A stretch of DNA of 11,098 nucleotides from a virus, in the UHGV virus genome UHGV-0277743; one strand, written 5' to 3'. Positions 1 through 11,098 of this stretch are shown piece by piece. Both the position numbers and the translations under genes were made by a program. The notes beneath the pieces were generated by a model that made no database searches, was not told the DNA's origin, and saw only the letters and a program-made list of their open reading frames with translations. The stretch's first letter is position 1. Every line of letters begins with the position of its first letter.

Positions 1-135
1 GTTAACGTCACGCACGTGGACGAATGTTTTTGTGGAGTCACTACACGAGCAGAGAAAGCCATCTACGACCAGAAATTCTCTGGCGCAGCCGCCGACCTTC
101 TCAACGCTAACACCATCGACCGTAATTTCTGACAT
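1..135 (-). CDS. hypothetical protein, 5' portion only (ORF runs off the window start)
   Basis: ATG at 133-135 on minus strand, frame open through position 1 ([16 protein letters not shown]...). Absent from the ORF track because it has no in-window stop. No strong SD and no recognisable motif. Confidence 0.3.
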
Positions 136-269
136 AGTTAAGGCATCCGCTCCTACCACCAGAAAATGATAAACTTTGCTTGTATCTGCTCTATTAATGC
201 CAGACTTTGCTGTCATATTGCTGGATTTTGGCGACATACCAGCCAGTGAAAATATCTTCTTCTGGGCGG

Positions 270-452
270 TTAGCATTTGTTAACCTCCGCGAACTCCTTC
301 ATGAAACGTGCCAGCGGTTGTACGCATGGCGATTGATACCCGTCGCGATAAAACGTCACTCGGTTGTGAGACACGCTTTCGACAGTAACGAGTGCTCCGT
401 GGGCATCTTTGTAGCGTTTTTGGGGTTGTGGTGTTCCTGTCGGCTTAAACAT
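270..452 (-). CDS. small hypothetical protein (60 aa)
   Basis: Internal ATG of track ORF 270..539, preceded by GGAGG with a 6-nt spacer. The longer N-terminal extension would overlap the upstream antirepressor gene by about 95 nt, so I use the ATG at 452. Product MFKPTGTPQPQKRYKDAHG...; no motif recognised. Confidence 0.45.
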   Translation of the reverse strand: MFKPTGTPQPQKRYKDAHGALVTVESVSHNRVTFYRDGYQSPCVQPLARFMKEFAEVNKC

Positions 453-3005: not shown

Positions 3006-3100
3006 TGCGTCACCTTTTACGCTGCGCCTTATTTTGTGATTGAGCCAGGCGGTAAGGCTTCCCGCTTTTCGCCCCGTCGAGCTAGGCTCAATCTATTCAG

Positions 3101-4360
3101 TTAGTTCGCCCTTCTGAGAGGCGTTACGTTGTAGTCTTTTCCGCTTTCCAGTGCCACCAGCAGATCAGCCCACAGTGCCAGTGCTGCTTTACGCTCATCA
3201 AAATACTGATGGCGGTTATAAATCCCCTCTACGCCCTTAATGCGATGATTGAGGCATCGTTCCGCCACGACAGGATCAACACCCAACGCTGCTAAATGAG
3301 TACGTGCGGTGCGTCGGAAGTCGTGAATCGTGAAATTAGGCACATCCGGCATTTCGGCGCGAACCTTAGCCAGTGCTACGGGTAAAGTGCTTTCCTGAAT
3401 ATGTGGGATCATTCTGTTTTGCATTTTCCTGGCTGGAAGCACCCATGCGCTATTACATGAAAAGGTGTGTAGCTCTCTCAACCATTCAACGGCTGGGGAA
3501 GGTAGAGGTATATCAATAGGGTCTCCGTTTTTGCTGCGTTCTTCCGGCAAATGCCATACCGCACCATCTAAATCAAACTCTTCCCATCGTGCGGCGCATA
3601 ACTCCATCTTACGAACGCATAGTGCCAGCAATAGCTTAAATGTCAGTTCGTTCTGGCGGCTGAATCCTTTTGCGGTGCGCATAGCCTCGAATAGCCTGAT
3701 AAGCTCATCGCGAGTTAGCCAACGGTCGCGGGAAACCTCTTTACCACCAGCATCAGATACTTCAAACGCTGAACAAGGGTTTATCTCCAGAGCGTGGCGT
3801 TTTATCCCGTAGTCAAAGATACGGCGTGTCCAGCGTAATACATCTGTTGCTATCGTTGGTGCTCCTCGGTCAACGATACCTTTCAACATGTCGTCAATGT
3901 GGCGTGGCTTAACGTCCTCTACCTTCATATGCCCAATGCAGGGGTTAATATCCTTATCAATTCTCCGGCGAAGGATATCGGGATGTTTCCATCTCGGAAG
4001 TATCTGGCGCTCGAAGTATTCGGAGGCCAGATCTGAAACACGCATGGCGTTTTTCTCAGCCTCCATTTTTGCCAGTGCTTCAGCTTTTCGTTCCTGTTTC
4101 TCTGCTGCTACGTCATAGCCAAGAGCAACTCTGGCTGACAGCTCTTTGGCTGTCTCTCTGGCCTTTGATAGTGATAGCTCGCTATACGAACCAATTAGCA
4201 TGGCGCGGGACTTCCCTGCGAGTTTATAGCGGAATCTCCATGTGGGGGTTTTGTCGGCTTCACGGTAACGTAGGTATAAACCGTTACCGTCTGCCCGCCC
4301 CTCGAATCGCTCTCCGCTCTTAATCCATGCGCGGATCTGCATGTCTGTTAGTTTTGGCAT
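3101..4360 (-). CDS. int: tyrosine integrase, P4 family
   Basis: N-terminus MPKLTDMQIRAWIKSGERFEGRADGNGLYLRY matches the arm-binding domain pattern of P4-type integrases. C-terminus carries HDFRRT and CLNHRIKGVEGIYNRHQY (the H-x-x-R and catalytic Tyr region). Start trimmed from the track value 4501 to the ATG at 4358-4360, because the conserved N-terminus begins there and the extension would run through a terminator hairpin. Confidence 0.9.
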   Translation of the reverse strand: MPKLTDMQIRAWIKSGERFEGRADGNGLYLRYREADKTPTWRFRYKLAGKSRAMLIGSYSELSLSKARETAKELSARVALGYDVAAEKQERKAEALAKMEAEKNAMRVSDLASEYFERQILPRWKHPDILRRRIDKDINPCIGHMKVEDVKPRHIDDMLKGIVDRGAPTIATDVLRWTRRIFDYGIKRHALEINPCSAFEVSDAGGKEVSRDRWLTRDELIRLFEAMRTAKGFSRQNELTFKLLLALCVRKMELCAARWEEFDLDGAVWHLPEERSKNGDPIDIPLPSPAVEWLRELHTFSCNSAWVLPARKMQNRMIPHIQESTLPVALAKVRAEMPDVPNFTIHDFRRTARTHLAALGVDPVVAERCLNHRIKGVEGIYNRHQYFDERKAALALWADLLVALESGKDYNVTPLRRAN

Positions 4361-4390
4361 TTTGCGAATATCCAAACTTTGAATAGGGGG

Positions 4391-4442
4391 TGTACCCAAA
4401 GCAATGTACCCAAACCTCATTGGGTACACCTTTGTGTACACC
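4391..4442. promoter_or_regulatory. GTAC-core operator-like repeats in the int promoter region
   Basis: Two TGTACCCAAA copies (4391-4400, 4405-4414) followed by TGGGTACACC-TTT-GTGTACACC (4421-4442). The near-palindrome GGTGTACACC gives dyad symmetry. Sits 30-80 bp upstream of the int start codon. Confidence 0.45.
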
Positions 4443-4482
4443 ATAATCATGCGCTTTGTTGCGTCGTTATGATAGCTCATGA

Positions 4483-4513
4483 TAACAAAAAAGCCCGACA
4501 TTTCGCGGGCTTT
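4483..4513 (-). terminator. intrinsic terminator between the two-gene cassette and int
   Basis: Minus-strand RNA reads AAAGCCCG-cgaaaugu-CGGGCUUU followed by UUUGUUAUC. The same hairpin on the plus strand is followed by TATGGTTTTTT, so it may act in both directions, less well on the plus strand. Confidence 0.55.
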
Positions 4514-4632
4514 ATGGTTTTTTGCTGCTTGGTGATTTTTGCTGATAGCTTATTCGATATTCTGAATCTGTTTATTGAGTATGAGCCTCTATGCTGCGTG
4601 GTTACTGGATTCCTTGTAATGCTTCTTATAAT

Positions 4633-4655
4633 TAGGTACACCCATGTGTACACGG
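4633..4655. promoter_or_regulatory. second copy of the palindromic GGTACACC-n3-GTGTACAC module
   Basis: TAGGTACACC-CAT-GTGTACACGG aligns with 4421-4442 (TGGGTACACC-TTT-GTGTACACC). The GTAC cores are 12 bp apart in both copies. The two copies flank the terminator hairpin. Confidence 0.45.
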
Positions 4656-4791: not shown

Positions 4792-4894
4792 CTGTACCAC
4801 CTGTACCACCATGTCACAAACCCTTGTGTGACGCGGCCTGCAGGTGGTACAGGTGGGTAAAAATGACCTCTCCCCACCTGTACAGACCTGTACC
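4792..4894. repeat. iteron cluster B with nested inverted repeats (candidate ori or attP core region)
   Basis: The 9-mer GGTACAGGT or its complement occurs at 4799-4807 (-), 4847-4855 (+) and 4886-4894 (-), with related copies at 4792-4798 and 4876-4884. A perfect 14-bp inverted repeat CCACCTGTACCACC (4797-4810) / GGTGGTACAGGTGG (4843-4856) encloses an inner 6-bp inverted repeat GTCACA (4813-4818) / TGTGAC (4827-4832) with an 8-bp spacer. Confidence 0.5.
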
Positions 4895-4900
4895 ATTTAT

Positions 4901-5638
4901 TTAATTTTTACCCATAGCAGCACATAATCCCTTTTTTGAAATATTGAAAAATGCGTTCATTCTTCCCGCTGGCTTAACCTTGTAGCCGCTTGCCACCATC
5001 GCCGCAATAAATGCTCCGTTGGGGATATAGTGCGGGTGATCACTGTGCTGGTGGTTTATCTGGTTATATCGCTCCACTTCATGCTTCAACGTGTCAGATG
5101 TGGGGTTATCCTGCGGGAAGCTCTCAATCTGGGCATTACTCATCCCGTTGTCTCTGATCCATCTCAGGCAGCTTTTCGCCGATACGATAAATGACGGGTT
5201 ATCAAGCGGGTTTTCCCAGTCCGCATTCCGGTTGTGGAGCGCCAGTCCGTCAAGGTTAAATTGTGGGTATTCAGCGGTAATTACTGTCACTGCGTGGCGG
5301 ATTTCAGTCTCGTCACAACATGGCTCATCTCCCACACCAGCAGGGTAATAATCTGAACCACCGGGACTGATACAGCGTTTACCACTGAAAGGCCATTGCT
5401 TCGCCATTTCGGGTGTTGAGTGATTACCGTCGCTCCGTTCGCGCTGTGCCTCTGTCCACTGGCTGGCATATTCAGTAAATGAAACCCTTTGCCCCTGACG
5501 CATCCAGTGCGCAATCATAATTAAAGTGCGTTCCAGACTTTGGATGTCGCCAGCATTCCCGCACTGTGTAGCGAAACTTTTTAATTCTTCGCGCTCCGTT
5601 CTGGTCATTCCCTGCGGTATGCAATAGTTATTGCTCAT
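4901..5638 (-). CDS. hypothetical protein (245 aa), second gene of a two-gene cassette
   Basis: ATG at 5636-5638 preceded by AGAGAGGT with a 5-nt spacer. Overlaps the upstream 76-aa gene by 11 nt. His-rich C-terminal patch (INHQHSDHPHYIPNG). No family recognised. Confidence 0.65.
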   Translation of the reverse strand: MSNNYCIPQGMTRTEREELKSFATQCGNAGDIQSLERTLIMIAHWMRQGQRVSFTEYASQWTEAQRERSDGNHSTPEMAKQWPFSGKRCISPGGSDYYPAGVGDEPCCDETEIRHAVTVITAEYPQFNLDGLALHNRNADWENPLDNPSFIVSAKSCLRWIRDNGMSNAQIESFPQDNPTSDTLKHEVERYNQINHQHSDHPHYIPNGAFIAAMVASGYKVKPAGRMNAFFNISKKGLCAAMGKN

Positions 5639-5858
5639 GTTTTACCTCTCTGATTTCTGCTGCCATATCTGTTGGCTCTATACAGCCGTCCCGACTTGCC
5701 ACGCAGGGAATAATGATTTCAACGGTATCGCCGTCAATACACATTTCAACATTCGCCCATGCCGCAATGGGTAGCCAGTCTGAACGCCCCTCAAACCGTA
5801 GCTGCCAGCCAGAGGAAGAAGCTAACTGGCGCACTTTGTAAAATGGTGTGCTCATCAT
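5628..5858 (-). CDS. hypothetical protein (76 aa), first gene of the two-gene cassette
   Basis: Tandem ATG ATG at 5858-5853 with GAGAGGG 8 nt upstream. Stop overlaps the start of the 245-aa gene. No HTH or other motif recognised. Confidence 0.55.
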   Translation of the reverse strand: MMSTPFYKVRQLASSSGWQLRFEGRSDWLPIAAWANVEMCIDGDTVEIIIPCVASRDGCIEPTDMAAEIREVKHEQ

Positions 5859-5902: not shown

Positions 5903-6005
5903 GGTATAGGTGGTACAGGTCTGGTATAGGTAAGACATTGACCTGTACCACTATAACACATTGTTTTTAATGCTGAATTAGCAAAGTGGTATAGGTGGTA
6001 CAGGT
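5903..6005. repeat. iteron cluster A immediately downstream of the primase-helicase gene (crr/ori-like)
   Basis: Identical 18-mer GGTATAGGTGGTACAGGT at 5903-5920 and 5988-6005; partial copy GGTATAGGT at 5923-5931; inverted copy ACCTGTACCACTATA at 5941-5955. The basic unit is the 9-mer GGTAYAGGT. Flanked by AT-rich sequence (6006-6034). Confidence 0.6.
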
Positions 6006-6034: not shown

Positions 6035-8386
6035 TTAAAAAACATCATAACCCCCCATACCGATCAGACGGGCAAACGCAGCCTGTAGAACTCCGACCTC
6101 TGGTAGTTCGTAGAACACGCCATTCCCTCGGTCTGGTCTTCCATGCTTCACCAGCCCCATTTGTGCAAGTGATTTACCCAGTAGTGATCTGGCAGCTGGT
6201 TCTTTAAGCTTTTCCCCACGCTCAAGCGACCACGCTACAAACCGACTAACCATATCCTTTGCAAACAAACGGACTTCGCCATTAAACGGAGGTTCATTGA
6301 TTAGCTCGCCATAAAGAAACAATTCAACGCCAGACAGCCCCAGCAAGATTTCTTCACGTAAGGCATCGGTCTGTGGCGCTCGTTGAGGGTCAAAACCTGA
6401 GAGATCCACCCCTTTAAGATGCCAAAGCAACTTTGCGGCACCGCCATCATTAAGCCAACTGTACAGCCGATCAAAATACTCCCGGCTCTGTGCTTTTTCA
6501 GGAGATGGCTCAAGCACGAGATAGCGACGCTCTCTTATCCCTGCCTGTAATACCTGTGTGCTGTTACTGGCAAATATCAACCGGGCAAAATTCGGCATTG
6601 GTTCAGCATCAATTCCCTTGCGCTCAAGGTTAAACGTCGGTTCGCTAATAATCGCTTTAAGTCTGTCAGCTTCAGACGGCTTGTGGATCGTCACTTCGTC
6701 AGCAAATACCAGTAGCTTGTTAGCAAGTATTGAATTGAAGCGCCCTGAAATATGTCCCGCCCCGTTAATGTGGGCGGCGTACTGCCCCAGTATTTGCAGC
6801 AGCGGTTTAACCGTTGTGCCTTTCCCTGTGCCCGGGACAGATTTCATCACGATTGCCACGGACGGTTTTTCATCAGGCTTTTGGATAATGTGCGCCATCC
6901 ACTGGATAAGATATTGGTATGCCTCTTCATTACCGGCACAGACAACCTGCAACAGGTGATTAAGGTATACCGTGCAATCTCCTTCAATTGGTTCCAGTGC
7001 CAGCCCCTCATACAGATTAAAAACATCGTCAGGGCATTTGTCTGGTACTGGATAAAATCCTACGCCTCCTGGCTTGTAGTTCTTCCCACTCCATGACAGC
7101 CACGCCGATCCCGCCAGCTTTCTGGCGACTCTCGGTTTATGATGAAAATAATGCTGAAATTGTGATAAATCCTCGAAAACGTGCGATACACCGCCGGTTT
7201 GAGAAGGCTTTAGCGACACCACCTTGTGTTTCCCGCCGATGGTGACATGCGTAAACGTCCGGTTGATTTCTTCGAGGACAGCAATTTCATCATCGCTTAA
7301 CACCTCGCCAGAACTGATCTCATTCAGCGCCCCGACTGACTGTTTGTGATTTTTCACCTGCGCCCCTTTCCCCCGTGGCTGGTACATCGAATCTTTAAAT
7401 GCTGCTGTGGCTGCCGCCAGCCCGTGTTGTTGGTGATAGTCGTTCCAGTCGGCTTTATAGTCAGTCGGTGGCAGAGACACCCAGCCAGCTACGGAAATAG
7501 CGGCCCTCTCTGCGGCATCTTTCCCCGTGTTGATCCCTCCACTTTCGGAGTTTCCTTGCTGGTGATCGTTATCTGCGGCAATGATGATTTGTGCCTGTGG
7601 ATATGTTCTGCGCATGACTTCCGCTACTGGCAACAGGTTGCCAGCGTCGATTGCTGCCACTGTCATTGCGTCAGGGCGAATTAAATGGCACGACAGGGCG
7701 GTAGCCACCCCCTCAGCAATTATGATGCTGTGAGGTCGTTTCTGTGCGTTTATGGCGTGATATGCCCCTCGCTTTGCTGAACCTGTCAGGAGTCTTTTTT
7801 CACCATGTGAGGTAATAGTCTGTGCTGCTGTGACTGCGCCGGATTTATCCACCAGCGCCAGCAACAGAGATCCATCGGGCAACACAGGGAATGTAAAATC
7901 ACCTACCCCTTTCGCAACCAGATAATCAGATTTGCCGTTTACAGCCTTTCTGCGCATGTCATCAAACTGACGGGAAAACGTATCCCGTCTTTGTTGTTCG
8001 TCCTTCTCTGCCCTTTTCAGGCGCTCCTGTTCGCGTCGCTGGCGCTCGGTTTCCAGTTGTTCCCGTTTCTGGCTGGTGGCTTCTGGTGTTTCCGTTGTCC
8101 GGTAATCAATACCCAGAACATCAGCGGCAAGCAGCGCCGCCTCTGTTGTGTCGCAGTTATTTACGCGTTTAATTAAATCCAGCCCATCACCAGCGCCGCA
8201 CTGATTACAGATGAAGCTACCGCGCCCGTTGTCATCGAACCGGAATCGATCTTTGCCCCCACATGCAGGGCAGGGAGCATGACGGCGCGGAGAGTCAGGG
8301 ACATTTATGTTCAGGCAGCCCAGCACATGAGGCCAGTTGTTTTCAGACGCACTGATAACCTGACGGATAAGATCAATGTTTCGCAT
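6035..8386 (-). CDS. bifunctional DNA primase-helicase, P4 alpha-like
   Basis: 783 aa from the ATG at 8384-8386 (the track starts one codon earlier at a GTG). N-terminal zinc ribbon CPACGGKD..CNQCGAGDG; Toprim motifs IIIAEGVATALS and IIIAADND; Walker A VPGTGKGT and Walker B LLVFADEV. GGGG SD 7 nt upstream. Resemblance to P4 alpha in length and domain order is from memory. Confidence 0.9.
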   Translation of the reverse strand: MRNIDLIRQVISASENNWPHVLGCLNINVPDSPRRHAPCPACGGKDRFRFDDNGRGSFICNQCGAGDGLDLIKRVNNCDTTEAALLAADVLGIDYRTTETPEATSQKREQLETERQRREQERLKRAEKDEQQRRDTFSRQFDDMRRKAVNGKSDYLVAKGVGDFTFPVLPDGSLLLALVDKSGAVTAAQTITSHGEKRLLTGSAKRGAYHAINAQKRPHSIIIAEGVATALSCHLIRPDAMTVAAIDAGNLLPVAEVMRRTYPQAQIIIAADNDHQQGNSESGGINTGKDAAERAAISVAGWVSLPPTDYKADWNDYHQQHGLAAATAAFKDSMYQPRGKGAQVKNHKQSVGALNEISSGEVLSDDEIAVLEEINRTFTHVTIGGKHKVVSLKPSQTGGVSHVFEDLSQFQHYFHHKPRVARKLAGSAWLSWSGKNYKPGGVGFYPVPDKCPDDVFNLYEGLALEPIEGDCTVYLNHLLQVVCAGNEEAYQYLIQWMAHIIQKPDEKPSVAIVMKSVPGTGKGTTVKPLLQILGQYAAHINGAGHISGRFNSILANKLLVFADEVTIHKPSEADRLKAIISEPTFNLERKGIDAEPMPNFARLIFASNSTQVLQAGIRERRYLVLEPSPEKAQSREYFDRLYSWLNDGGAAKLLWHLKGVDLSGFDPQRAPQTDALREEILLGLSGVELFLYGELINEPPFNGEVRLFAKDMVSRFVAWSLERGEKLKEPAARSLLGKSLAQMGLVKHGRPDRGNGVFYELPEVGVLQAAFARLIGMGGYDVF

Positions 8387-8744
8387 CACCGTACCCCACG
8401 TGGTCTATAGCGTTTGCGATATGGCTAACCAGCATCTGCCACTTGGTTATTCCGTAATCAGTCAGCATGCCATCATTGTTTAGCCACATATCAAATTCAG
8501 CGGTTGTCGCAAGTTTCCACTTATCGCCGTGGACAGTCCTCATTGCTGGGTACATGAATGCGCAAATCAGATCACAAACATCTGACGGCTTCAGAGATGT
8601 AGTAATGGTGCGTCCCTCTGGCGTCTGAATTGCCATTTTCTCTTCACCAGTAGAATGAAGGTTATGAATCCACACAGCACCAGCAATCTTTGCCACCTGC
8701 TCTCCGATTGCGGAGCTAAGCGCCATTTCTGCATTTTCACGCAT
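8373..8744 (-). CDS. hypothetical protein (123 aa), early operon
   Basis: ATG at 8742-8744 overlaps the upstream stop; its own stop overlaps the alpha start by 14 nt. No motif recognised. Confidence 0.6.
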   Translation of the reverse strand: MRENAEMALSSAIGEQVAKIAGAVWIHNLHSTGEEKMAIQTPEGRTITTSLKPSDVCDLICAFMYPAMRTVHGDKWKLATTAEFDMWLNNDGMLTDYGITKWQMLVSHIANAIDHVGYGDAKH

Positions 8745-10165: not shown

Positions 10166-10356
10166 TTTTCACCCCCAAGAATTACCAGCTCGGCACGGGC
10201 ATCGTTAACCAAAGATGAGCACGCTTTAATCGCATCCACGACATCAGCAGCGTCCATTTCTTCAGCCGAAAGACTGACAGCAACCAGGACAGCCGCTGCT
10301 TGCTCGATTAATTGAAGTGCGGACGTAAGGCGAGGGGTATTAATTGAGTTATTCAT
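10162..10356 (-). CDS. hypothetical protein (64 aa), early operon
   Basis: Track ORF 10162..10413 trimmed to the ATG at 10354-10356 (MNNSINTPRL...), preceded by GGGGG. Acidic, Ala-rich product. Confidence 0.5.
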   Translation of the reverse strand: MNNSINTPRLTSALQLIEQAAAVLVAVSLSAEEMDAADVVDAIKACSSLVNDARAELVILGGEK

Positions 10357-10567
10357 TGGTTGCCCCCGTTTTGCATGGCATTTGTCCACCTTCCAGCAGG
10401 AAATGAACGTCACGAACGGCGAGATCCAATATCGCGAGTAACGCCTTCAGCCTTTCGTCTCGTGAGGGAGAGTTGCTCACCAGAATGTCGTTAATCACTT
10501 CTGTCAGTGTGATGATCTGGCTTGTGCGTTCGAGGGGATCCATATGCACATCGTAGGTTTTAATCAT
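10349..10567 (-). CDS. hypothetical protein (72 aa), early operon
   Basis: ATG at 10565-10567 preceded by GGAGGTGGCAC, a strong SD. This is the 3' part of track ORF 10349..11095, whose upstream portion I do not accept as coding. Confidence 0.55.
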   Translation of the reverse strand: MIKTYDVHMDPLERTSQIITLTEVINDILVSNSPSRDERLKALLAILDLAVRDVHFLLEGGQMPCKTGATNE

Positions 10568-10754
10568 GTGCCACCTCCATGCGGATACGACCAGCAAAAA
10601 AGCAGACGTGATCGCGCACCAGAGAACGGCGAGCATCGCGTTCAGACTCGGCAGCAATATGATGAATTTTGGCGGTAATTGTCGGGCAATCGCGGCGAAC
10701 TGCGGCGATAATCCAGATAAATTGCGGTTTTTGGGTAGGGGTAGTAGCCAGCAT
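10560..10754 (-). CDS. hypothetical protein (64 aa), first gene of the early operon
   Basis: ATG at 10752-10754 preceded by GAGG with a 7-nt spacer. Its stop overlaps the next start (ATGATTAA). Competes with the long alternative-frame ORF 10349..11095, so confidence is modest. Confidence 0.45.
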   Translation of the reverse strand: MLATTPTQKPQFIWIIAAVRRDCPTITAKIHHIAAESERDARRSLVRDHVCFFAGRIRMEVAHD

Positions 10755-10913
10755 GTGGCAGCCTCTGATTCATGGTTTTGAGAACCACCACCGGAAACGC
10801 CAATTTCGCTGGTGGTGAACTGTACAGGGTTGGCGTAACCGGGAATCAGAGAAACCGGCGCGGATTGCTCCGCCCCCATACAGTCCACCATTGAACAGGT
10901 GTAACTGCGCGGC

Positions 10914-10939
10914 ACAAAAAAACACGCATGGCGCGTGTT
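10914..10939 (-). terminator. intrinsic terminator in the leader upstream of the early operon (candidate attenuator)
   Basis: Minus-strand RNA reads AACACGC-gccau-GCGUGUU followed by UUUUUGU, and the stem can extend with GCACAA/UUGUGC. Lies about 160 nt upstream of the first early gene. Confidence 0.45.
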
Positions 10940-11000
10940 GTGCGCTCTGATAATTACCGGGACGCCAATCCCGACACCAGATTTTGCTGGTGCGCTATAA

Positions 11001-11043
11001 CCATAAACCGTGTTGCCGCATAACGGCAAGCTCTTTTTTATGG
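11001..11043. other. stem-loop element in the leader (CCATAAA...TTTATGG with an inner GC hairpin)
   Basis: Outer inverted repeat CCATAAA (11001-11007) / TTTATGG (11037-11043) encloses the hairpin TTGCCG-cataa-CGGCAA. On the plus strand the hairpin is followed by a T-run, so it could also be a plus-strand terminator. Function unknown; the window ends 55 nt further on. Confidence 0.3.
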
Positions 11044-11098
11044 ACTCCGAAAACTCACTATTGGAAGCACCAGATGCACAATACATCGCGCTCATTTC

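What the first reader, a model, noticed from the sequence alone, without database searches (positions are those of the whole stretch)
10755..11098. Structured leader with an intrinsic terminator upstream of the early operon: possible attenuation-type control
The 340 bp upstream of the first small gene contain a good minus-strand intrinsic terminator (10914-10939) and a second stem-loop (11001-11043). The ORF track shows a long open frame across this region, but its translation is low-complexity and poor in typical protein character. P4 controls its early operon by premature termination in the leader, driven by a small RNA; a terminator placed before the first gene is what that mechanism would look like. 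The region also has one GGTGAACTGTACAGG sequence (10813-10827) related to the iteron core.
Basis: partly seen in the sequence, partly recalled or inferred. Interest (0 to 1): 0.45.

Follow-up and report, generated by a model that had tools for sequence, protein, structure and literature searches.

The report
P4-type antisense-RNA immunity region
This stretch is the RNA-based immunity switch of a small phage satellite: an internal promoter, a decoy RNA ending in a terminator, and an antisense RNA that blocks the first early gene, a system already described for phages P4 and P1.

Summary
The minus-strand terminator (10914-10939) and the hairpin (11001-11043) are both there. What they are can be named exactly.

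- Window 10917-10993(-) is a full-length match to Rfam isrK (81 bits). This is the P4 'seqA' leader, and it ends in the terminator.
- Window 10808-10895(-) is a full-length C4 antisense RNA (77 bits), the P4 CI / P1 c4 immunity RNA.
- Two single-stranded segments of C4 are complementary to sites in isrK. They are also complementary to sites just upstream of the 64-aa Icd/Kil-like gene, covering its ribosome-binding site.
- In 62 relatives these three-way pairings co-vary, with 25 specificity combinations.
- The 11001-11043 hairpin overlaps a conserved promoter (TTGCCG-18-TATGGT, aligned with P4's TTGCCT-18-TATAGT). It is not conserved as a structure.
- The 'iteron-like' 15-mer is the 3' arm of the C4 stem.
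- The long ORF is the Eta/'Ash' homologue. It is stop-free across the RNAs in 72 of 73 relatives, so it is probably translated from upstream transcripts, as in P4.

Verdict: a known system. One modest new detail: here the Eta-like frame runs +1 through icd and is kept open.

The parts
11034..11039 (-). A-tract directly upstream of the -35 (UP-element-like)
   Evidence: Read from the sequence. The AAAAA columns are at least 95% conserved in 60 relatives.
11024..11029 (-). -35 hexamer TTGCCG of the internal (P4 PLE-like) promoter
   Evidence: The CTTG columns are at least 95% conserved while the 18-nt spacer is variable. It aligns with P4 TTGCCT. It scores 4 of 6 in each hexamer, below the scan's reporting threshold.
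11000..11005 (-). -10 hexamer TATGGT; the isrK 5' end (10993) lies 7 nt downstream
   Evidence: The TATGGTTATAG block is conserved in 60 relatives. It aligns with P4 TATAGT.
10917..10993 (-). isrK / P4 seqA-type leader RNA: two hairpins, a linker and an intrinsic terminator
   Evidence: Rfam RF01394, 81.1 bits (gathering score 50), model positions 1-77 of 77. On 29 sequences 97.2% of cells are paired and 8 of 17 pairs show compensatory change; 0 of 500 shuffles reach this.
10962..10968 (-). a1 target UUGGCGU in the loop of isrK hairpin 2
   Evidence: Exact complement of C4 nt 60-66. Complementary 7 of 7 in all 53 relatives parsed, although there are 10 a' variants.
10945..10951 (-). b1 target AUCAGAG in the isrK linker, 5 nt before the terminator stem
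   Evidence: Complement of C4 nt 45-51. Cognate pairing averages 8.5 nt against 4.4 for non-cognate pairs.
10914..10939 (-). Intrinsic terminator (homologue of P4 t1): stem 10939-10921, T-run 10920-10914
10808..10895 (-). C4 antisense RNA (P4 CI / P1 c4 homologue)
   Evidence: Rfam RF01695, 76.7 bits (gathering score 45), model positions 1-87 of 87. The minimum-energy fold equals the Rfam consensus, -41.9 kcal/mol, z -5.15. On 34 sequences 100% of cells are paired and 14 of 27 pairs are compensatory; 0 of 500 shuffles reach this.
10843..10851 (-). b' specificity loop CUCUGAUUC of C4
   Evidence: There are 17 loop variants among relatives, and this one is rare (2 of 62).
10830..10836 (-). a' single-stranded segment ACGCCAA of C4
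10797..10803 (-). a2 target UUGGCGU (part of the P4 seqC equivalent)
   Evidence: Complementary 7 of 7 in 62 of 62 relatives.
10763..10771 (-). b2 target GAAUCAGAG, overlapping the Shine-Dalgarno AGAGG of the icd-like gene (ATG 10754)
   Evidence: Cognate pairing averages 9.8 nt (minimum 8) against 5.1 for non-cognate pairs.
10560..10754 (-). Icd/Kil-like gene, 64 aa, the first gene translated from the internal promoter
   Evidence: NCBIfam NF033153, 71.7 bits (cut-off 25). The P4 Eta C-terminus (= Kil) hits the same model. Variation is highest at the third codon position in its own frame.
10349..11098 (-). Eta/'Ash'-like long ORF, window part. It continues upstream as window 276..1 if the window is read as a circle (341 aa in all)
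   Evidence: Pfam Phage_ASH matches exactly over isrK, C4 and a2/b2. The frame is open in 72 of 73 relatives.
1..276 (-). N-terminal part of the Eta/'Ash'-like ORF. The ATG at 276-274 overlaps the stop of the upstream DUF4222 gene (ATGcTAA), with GGAGG 8 nt upstream
10349..10567 (-). 72-aa gene nested in frame in the 3' end of the long ORF, with its own GGAGG before ATG 10567

Best explanation
The region is the immunity (self-repression) module of a P4/PICI-type phage satellite. It is built like the P4 PLE-seqA-t1-cI-seqC-kil region and like P1 immI.

Internal promoter and leader (inferred from sequence and conservation). A weak but conserved internal promoter (-35 at 11029, -10 at 11005) starts transcription at about 10993. 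The first 77 nt form the isrK/seqA RNA, which ends in an intrinsic terminator. Transcripts that read through contain the 88-nt C4/CI RNA. By analogy with P1 and P4, this RNA is excised by RNase P and other nucleases.

Pairing (shown by sequence and co-variation). Two exposed segments of C4, a' and b', pair with a2/b2 over the ribosome-binding site of the icd/kil-like gene. They also pair with a1/b1 in the isrK leader, next to the terminator.

Consequences (inferred from P1 and P4 work). Pairing at a2/b2 blocks icd/kil translation. The untranslated RNA is then terminated before the replication genes (primase at 6035-8389). Pairing at a1/b1 enhances termination at the isrK terminator and so limits C4 production.

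Escape (ORF conservation shown here; the effect is inferred from P4 eta). When the element is induced, transcripts come from upstream, through alpA, antA and DUF4222. These are translated straight through the whole region as the 341-aa Eta/'Ash'-like ORF. Translating ribosomes prevent both the RNA pairing and the termination, so the early operon is expressed.
For: - Rfam: full-length isrK and C4 hits above the gathering scores. c4-a1b1 scores 45.1 bits over the isrK 5' half.
- P4 gives the same three hits in the same order inside its eta ORF.
- Exact complementarity: C4 nt 45-53 and 60-66 pair with two sites on each side.
- Three-way co-variation in 62 relatives: a'-a1 and a'-a2 are 7 of 7 in every case. 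b'-b2 averages 9.8 nt against 5.1 for non-cognate pairs. There are 25 a'/b' combinations.
- P4 and Stx2 phage F039 follow the same rule with different sequences.
- Structural co-variation supports both the C4 and the isrK folds.
- The promoter hexamers and A-tract are conserved around a variable spacer.
- The Icd-like gene is confirmed.
- The long ORF is open in 72 of 73 distinct loci, while the other two frames carry on average 1.05-2.7 stops.
- In the class to which the window belongs, the +1 frame through icd is stop-free in 36 of 36 distinct icd sequences. In the class that does not use that frame, only 7 of 23 are stop-free, and the stops sit at 10 different positions.
- A lambdoid phage with the same RNAs has stops in all three frames.
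- Literature: isrK = seqA and C4 = CI (PMC3632133, PMC4825925). C4 and isrK hits in Gram-negative PICIs, and the eta/kil/CI logic, are described in PMC10111431.
Against: - No transcript data exist for this element. The promoter matches only 4+4 of 12 consensus positions and was not reported by the scan.
- Termination sites downstream of C4 (P4 t4 and timm) cannot be predicted here.
- The Eta-like ORF is not in the icd/kil frame here, unlike in P4, so the P4 'nested eta/kil' description does not transfer literally.
- C4 columns show no codon periodicity in the ORF frame. The protein sequence itself may therefore be unimportant, and translation is supported only indirectly, by the absence of stops.
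- Most relatives carry an extra hairpin of about 65 nt between the terminator and C4. This window lacks it. Its role is unknown.
- In Gifsy-1 the same parts were reported to act differently, with IsrK activating translation (PMC4825925).
Confidence: 0.82

Rival explanations
1. Gifsy-1 IsrK-type logic. The short isrK-like RNA released at the terminator acts in trans on the read-through transcript. It opens an inhibitory structure, or titrates C4, and so switches on translation of the first gene. On this view the module is mainly an activator or timer, not a repressor.
For: The isrK model matches at 81 bits. isrK carries sites complementary to C4, so a free isrK RNA could sponge C4. Hershko-Shalev et al. 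showed trans-activation by short IsrK and a processed C4-like RNA (STnc1160) in Salmonella (PMC4825925).
Against: The architecture here is the satellite type (Icd/Kil-like first gene, Eta-like ORF, primase downstream) and matches P4 part for part. Gifsy-1 has orf45-anrP instead. In S. Typhi P4-like prophages the IsrK-like element is required, which was read as lysogeny maintenance (PMC3632133). The two mechanisms are not mutually exclusive.
Confidence: 0.2
2. Classical cis-acting attenuation. The leader folds into alternative terminator and antiterminator structures, chosen by a ribosome on a leader peptide or by a metabolite, with no trans-acting RNA.
For: A terminator lies before the first gene. 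Several hairpins are present.
Against: No leader-type Rfam family reaches threshold (Trp_leader 15.6 bits against 41). The co-varying complementarities run between C4 loops and two distant sites, not between overlapping halves of a terminator. The region matches two curated sRNA families.
Confidence: 0.04
3. The region simply encodes an 'Ash family' regulatory protein. The hairpins and Rfam hits are by-products of its coding sequence.
For: Pfam Phage_ASH and several PHROG 'transcriptional regulator' families match. The ORF is conserved as an open frame.
Against: Variation in the C4 columns shows no third-codon-position excess (0.75, 0.68, 0.73). icd does show it in its own frame. Stems change by compensatory pairs, which alter the amino acids. 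The same RNAs occur in an Stx2 phage with stops in all three frames. The Pfam domain coincides exactly with the RNA genes, and the N-termini of the ORFs are not homologous.
Confidence: 0.04
4. The terminator merely ends the upstream alpA-antA-DUF4222 operon, and the early genes have a separate promoter downstream.
For: It is the first intrinsic terminator after those genes.
Against: It lies about 330 nt past the DUF4222 stop, inside a conserved ORF that is translationally coupled to DUF4222. It forms the 3' end of the isrK model. No promoter-like site lies between it and icd.
Confidence: 0.03

Closest known systems
Satellite phage P4 immunity region: PLE - seqA - t1 - cI (CI RNA) - seqC - kil, nested in eta (Deho, Ghisotti and co-workers)
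   Same: - Same order and same Rfam hits: c4-a1b1 and isrK, then C4.
- The promoter hexamers align.
- The intrinsic terminator follows seqA.
- The CI/C4 RNA has two segments complementary to a site on each side.
- The first gene is Icd/Kil-like.
- A long Phage_ASH ORF covers everything, and the alpha-type primase lies downstream.
   Different: - The pairing sequences differ: window CUCUGAUUC and ACGCCAA, P4 CCUGUGAA and UUCUCAC.
- The terminator-to-C4 spacer is 21 nt here and 107 nt in P4.
- The long ORF is in the +1 frame relative to icd/kil and ends with the next gene (72 aa), not with kil.
- The element has a PICI-like layout (int - int-alpA RNA - alpA - AntA - DUF4222 upstream). No Pfam family matched the ORFs downstream of the primase that were scanned, so no sid, delta or psu homologue was seen; the 58-aa ORF was not scanned.
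Phage P1/P7 immI: c4 antisense RNA with a1/b1 and a2/b2 targets, icd, ant (own knowledge: Citron & Schuster 1990; Biere et al. 1992)
   Same: - The C4 family RNA.
- Two target pairs flanking it, the downstream pair over the icd ribosome-binding site.
- An Icd-like first gene.
- Repression of translation leading to loss of downstream transcription (mechanism taken from that literature).
   Different: - No antirepressor gene follows icd here. The AntA-domain gene lies upstream (445-1278).
- No ORF is known to span c4 in P1.
- The a1/b1 part here carries the isrK-type terminator.
Salmonella Gifsy-1 isrK - orf45 (STnc1160) - anrP locus (PMC4825925)
   Same: isrK-family RNA with its own promoter and a leaky intrinsic terminator. 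It is followed by a processed C4-like RNA that is complementary to it.
   Different: - There the downstream ORF (orf45) starts after isrK and overlaps the C4-like RNA.
- The output is an antirepressor and then a Q-like antiterminator.
- IsrK was shown to activate, not repress.
- No Icd-like gene and no Eta-like ORF.
Gram-negative PICIs and helper-embedded PICIs, 'Bro zone' immunity RNAs (PMC10111431)
   Same: Same four-zone layout: int/alpA, a Bro zone with AntA and Phage_ASH genes, a DUF5906 primase zone, and a late zone. That paper already reports C4 and isrK Rfam hits inside Bro-network genes.
   Different: That paper does not describe the frame relation to icd or the repertoire of pairing specificities measured here.

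Membership tests
Rfam C4 antisense RNA (RF01695) | Covariance-model score at or above the gathering score, over the full model | tested here: met
   76.7 bits against 45, model positions 1-87 of 87, E 5e-14.
Rfam C4 antisense RNA (RF01695) | Long closing helix enclosing two hairpins, supported by co-variation | tested here: met
   The minimum-energy fold is identical to the consensus, z -5.15. On 34 sequences 100% of cells are paired and 14 of 27 pairs are compensatory. Slid controls give 32-52% paired.
Rfam C4 antisense RNA (RF01695) | Two exposed segments (a', b') complementary to targets upstream and downstream | tested here: met
Rfam isrK (RF01394) / P4 seqA-t1 | Model score at or above the gathering score; two 5' hairpins plus an intrinsic terminator | tested here: met
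   81.1 bits against 50, model positions 1-77 of 77. 97.2% of cells paired and 8 of 17 pairs compensatory. The terminator scan is positive.
Rfam isrK (RF01394) / P4 seqA-t1 | Expressed as a discrete Hfq-binding RNA of about 77 nt | not testable with these tools
   Needs a Northern blot or RNA-seq.
Rfam c4-a1b1 (RF03163) | Model score at or above the gathering score | tested here: not met
   45.1 bits against 46.7. P4 itself scores 44.1. The a1 complementarity is nevertheless present.
P4-type immunity system | Constitutive promoter immediately upstream of seqA | tested here: inconclusive
   The conserved TTGCCG-18-TATGGT with A-tract aligns with P4. It matches only 8 of 12 consensus positions, and there are no transcript data.
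P4-type immunity system | seqC-type target overlapping the ribosome-binding site of a Kil/Icd-like first gene | tested here: met
   b2 at 10763-10771 covers AGAGG, 8 nt before ATG 10754. NF033153 scores 71.7 bits.
P4-type immunity system | Long ORF (eta) starting upstream of the internal promoter and covering seqA, cI and seqC, coupled to the preceding gene | tested here: met
   341-aa ORF whose ATG overlaps the DUF4222 stop. Phage_ASH matches as for P4 Eta. Open in 72 of 73 relatives.
P4-type immunity system | kil nested in frame in the 3' end of eta | tested here: not met
   icd is in a different frame (the ORF frame is +1 relative to icd). The ORF ends with the next gene. 25 of 73 relatives do have the P4 arrangement.
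P4-type immunity system | CI-dependent premature termination (t1, t4, timm) and escape by translation | not testable with these tools
   Needs reporter or transcript experiments.
P1/P7 immI operon | icd followed by, and overlapping, the antirepressor gene ant | tested here: not met
   The gene after icd is a 72-aa ORF with no family hit. The AntA-domain gene lies upstream at 445-1278.
NCBIfam Icd-like (NF033153) | Score above the curated cut-off | tested here: met
   71.7 bits against 25.
Classical leader-peptide attenuator | Match to a leader family, or mutually exclusive terminator and antiterminator helices | tested here: not met
   The best hit is Trp_leader at 15.6 bits against 41, E 0.71.

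The most novel reading that the evidence does not exclude
In about two thirds of these satellites, this one included, the Eta/'Ash'-like ORF enters the icd/kil gene in the +1 frame. It reads through all 64 codons and finishes in frame with the next gene.

That alternative frame is stop-free in 36 of 36 distinct icd sequences of this class. In the interleaved class that does not use the frame, only 7 of 23 are stop-free.

The RNA-gene part of the ORF shows no codon-level constraint. This would mean that selection acts on the act of translation, that is on ribosomes clearing the RNA pairing and termination sites, and not on the Ash/Eta protein. It would also mean that Pfam Phage_ASH is largely the translated image of two RNA genes.

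The 25 co-varying a'/b' combinations would then be a large repertoire of satellite immunity specificities.
Probability: 0.5. Interest if true: 0.45.

Novelty: already known. Interest (0 to 1): 0.22.

Why it matters
This module decides whether the satellite stays silent or starts replicating when a helper phage appears. Related sequence over this region occurs in about a fifth of complete E. coli genomes (1189 of 5426).

Naming it correctly prevents three annotation errors:
- calling the region only an 'ash family protein';
- missing two RNA genes;
- losing the overlapped icd-like gene. The RefSeq record for E. coli A3 does not annotate it.

The co-varying pairing segments also give a simple sequence read-out of immunity type, which could be used to predict which satellites exclude each other.

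Tried and rejected
- I first suspected that the 'ash family' ORF was a spurious translation of the two RNA genes, because the Pfam domain coincides with them. I rejected the 'not translated' version. The frame is open in 72 of 73 relatives, and the +1 frame through icd is selectively kept open. The weaker version, that the protein sequence is not itself under selection, survives.
- Iteron relation of GGTGAACTGTACAGG: rejected.
- The 11001-11043 hairpin as a conserved RNA element or operator: not conserved.
- The plus-strand terminator-like site 11013-11029: it is the same palindrome in the promoter spacer, no plus-strand gene ends there, and it is not conserved.
- Trp-leader-like attenuator: sub-threshold.
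- Original P4 papers: Forti 1999 (PMC94026) and Sabbattini 1995 (PMC176756) are not held, and Briani 2000 is held only as a citation in reference lists. Statements taken from those three papers rest on my own knowledge and on how PMC10111431 and PMC4825925 summarise them.
- Prediction of the downstream Rho-dependent or t4-type terminators: not attempted, as no tool offers it.

Full report
**What is in the sequence**

All genes in the window lie on the minus strand. Rfam at gathering thresholds gives two full-length hits inside the finding:
- isrK (RF01394) at 10917-10993(-), 81.1 bits;
- C4 antisense RNA (RF01695) at 10808-10895(-), 76.7 bits.

A third hit, int-alpA RNA, lies elsewhere in the window. 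With relaxed thresholds the c4-a1b1 model (the 'a1, b1 targets of C4') scores 45.1 bits over the 5' half of isrK. That is just under its gathering score of 46.7.

Its only relative in the window is the 5' arm of the same helix. The true iterons, GGTACAG(G), form two clusters at 4792-4894 and 5912-6003.

**Surroundings**

The window is a circular permutation of an 11.1-kb element. The E. coli A3 chromosome carries an almost identical integrated copy. In it, the DNA upstream of window 11098 equals window 444..1 (440 of 444 bases).

The gene order is:
- integrase;
- int-alpA RNA;
- a 321-aa ORF;
- AlpA;
- a 143-aa ORF;
- an AntA-domain protein;
- DUF4222;
- a 341-aa 'ash family' ORF;
- several small ORFs;
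- a DUF5906/Toprim primase.

The 341-aa ORF starts at window 276. Its ATG overlaps the DUF4222 stop codon, and it runs across the promoter, isrK, C4 and beyond to 10349. Its Pfam Phage_ASH match covers exactly the stretch that holds isrK, C4 and the downstream targets. Inside it, in another frame, lies a 64-aa gene (10560-10754) that matches the NCBIfam Icd-like model at 71.7 bits.

**Comparison with P4**

P4 itself (NC_001609) gives the same hits in the same order: c4-a1b1 and isrK, then C4, which is its CI RNA. All lie inside its 214-aa eta ORF. That ORF also matches Phage_ASH, and its C-terminus (Kil) matches the Icd-like model.

The literature already makes the equation:
- isrK and C4 are the structural homologues of P4 seqA and CI RNA (PMC3632133; PMC4825925, section 21).
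- Rfam C4 and isrK hits have been reported inside Bro-network genes of Gram-negative PICIs (PMC10111431).

**RNA-RNA pairing**

C4 nt 45-53 (CUCUGAUUC, in the loop of its second hairpin) is complementary to two sites:
- GAAUCAGAG at 10771-10763, which includes the Shine-Dalgarno of the icd-like gene;
- AUCAGAG at 10951-10945, in the isrK linker five bases before the terminator stem.

C4 nt 60-66 (ACGCCAA) is complementary to UUGGCGU at 10803-10797 and to UUGGCGU at 10968-10962, in the loop of isrK hairpin 2.

I collected 80 loci that encode relatives of the Icd-like protein. They yielded 62 distinct upstream regions. Results:
- The a' segment has 10 variants and the b' loop 17, in 25 combinations.
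- a'-a1 and a'-a2 are 7 of 7 complementary in every locus parsed.
- Cognate b'-b2 pairing averages 9.8 nt (minimum 8) against 5.1 for non-cognate pairs.
- Cognate b'-b1 pairing averages 8.5 nt against 4.4.

P4 and an Stx2 phage obey the same rule with their own sequences. This is strong comparative evidence that the pairings are functional and that they define immunity specificity.

The folds of both RNAs are also supported:
- C4: 100% of cells paired and 14 of 27 pairs with compensatory change, against slid controls of 32-52% paired. The window's minimum-energy fold equals the consensus, z -5.15.
- isrK: 97.2% paired and 8 of 17 pairs compensatory.

**Promoter**

In the alignment of relatives, four blocks just upstream of isrK are nearly invariant, while the 18-nt spacer between them varies freely. 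The blocks are an A-tract, CTTG (the -35, TTGCCG at 11029-11024) and TATGGT (the -10, 11005-11000). They align with P4's TTGCCT-18-TATAGT. The isrK 5' end lies 7 nt after the -10.

It is thermodynamically real in this window (z -2.7) but not conserved.

**Is the long ORF translated?**

The evidence for translation is good:
- A stop-free frame spans isrK to C4 in 72 of 73 distinct loci. The other frames average 1.05 to 2.7 stops over the same 225 nt.
- The N-terminal parts are not homologous to each other, yet they are always open.
- In 25 loci the frame is that of icd, as for P4 eta/kil. In 45 loci, the window included, it is +1.
- In the +1 class the +1 frame through icd is stop-free in 36 of 36 distinct icd sequences. 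In the other class it is stop-free in only 7 of 23, with stops at ten different positions. The two classes are interleaved, with up to 98% icd identity across classes.
- An Stx2 phage that has the same RNAs but no upstream operon has stops in all three frames.

Two further observations bear on what is selected. Variation in the C4 columns shows no codon periodicity in the ORF frame, whereas icd shows third-position excess in its own frame. So the frame is kept open, but the amino-acid sequence over the RNA genes looks dictated by the RNAs.

This fits what is reported for P4 (Forti et al. 1999, as summarised in PMC10111431, and my own knowledge). Transcripts from the upstream late promoter are translated as Eta, and that translation prevents immunity-specific termination. 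Translation therefore complements the leader model; it does not refute it.

**Mechanism, with status of each step**

Shown here by sequence and comparison:
- the parts and their order;
- the pairings and their co-variation;
- the conserved promoter hexamers;
- the terminator;
- the open frame.

Inferred from P1 and P4 experiments (my knowledge of Citron & Schuster 1990, Biere et al. 1992, Sabbattini et al. 1995, Forti et al. 1999 and Briani et al. 2000; the last is cited in PMC4825925):
- C4 is processed out of the leader.
- Pairing at a2/b2 blocks translation of the first gene, and the untranslated RNA is terminated before the replication genes.
- Pairing at a1/b1 enhances termination at the isrK terminator (P4 t1) and so autoregulates C4.
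- Translation from upstream overrides all of this.

The Gifsy-1 work (PMC4825925) shows that the same parts can be wired so that the short isrK RNA activates translation. That remains a live rival, or an additional layer.

**Novelty and verdict**

This is a known regulatory system in a known kind of element. The two RNAs match curated families, and the architecture equals that of P4. Related sequence over this region occurs in 1189 of 5426 complete E. coli genomes.

The anatomy it gave was incomplete and in places wrong.

Three things may be new but are modest:
- the +1 arrangement of the Eta-like ORF through icd, with evidence that it is kept open;
- the suggestion that Pfam Phage_ASH mainly mirrors two RNA genes;
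- the size of the specificity repertoire.

Noticed in passing
window 3026-3092 (-): int-alpA RNA (Rfam RF02996, 60.6 bits against a gathering score of 35.8), between the integrase gene (3101-4501) and a 321-aa ORF.
   Followed up: no
window 1 / 11098 junction; L001 (NZ_CP195960 3820336-3829134): The window is a circular permutation of an 11.1-kb satellite, and an integrated copy sits in E. coli A3. The RefSeq annotation there gives the 341-aa 'ash family protein' but neither the two RNA genes nor the overlapped icd-like gene.
   Followed up: partly
window 4792-4894 and 5912-6003: Two clusters of the iteron GGTACAG(G): 7 copies against 0.76 expected. They flank the 4901-5858 ORFs and resemble the split ori/crr arrangement of P4. 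A further 23-nt repeat lies at 4419-4441 and 4631-4653, next to the integrase start (possible arm sites).
   Followed up: partly
L004, L016, L017, L033 and most other relatives, about 110 to 60 nt upstream of C4: Most relatives carry an extra hairpin of about 65 nt between the isrK terminator and C4. Its loop holds a conserved TATAAT, so it may be a second promoter or an RNA hairpin. The window, L038, L003 and L078 lack it, and P4 has a different, longer spacer.
   Followed up: no
L077 and L079, +1 frame from the icd start to about +1060: In these two loci the read-through ORF continues for about 350 further codons into a sequence with tyrosine-recombinase-like motifs, giving ORFs of 474 and 499 aa.
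   Followed up: no
L061, isrK terminator T-run: This is the only locus with no open frame across isrK-C4. It has one T fewer in the terminator U-run, which would shift the Eta-like frame. It may be a decaying copy.
   Followed up: partly
L083 (Stx2 phage F039, LC710660) 1440-1760: A lambdoid phage carries the same isrK - C4 - a2/b2 module in front of a 215-aa gene. It has a better promoter (TTGACT-18-TATATT), its own co-varying pairing sequences, and stops in all three frames across the RNAs.
   Followed up: partly
window 10773-10792 (-): A small hairpin lies between a2 and b2 (GGUU-CUCAA-AACC here). Relatives show compensatory changes by eye (GGGAU/AUCCC, AGCG/CGCU). It is part of the seqC-like target region.
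   Followed up: no
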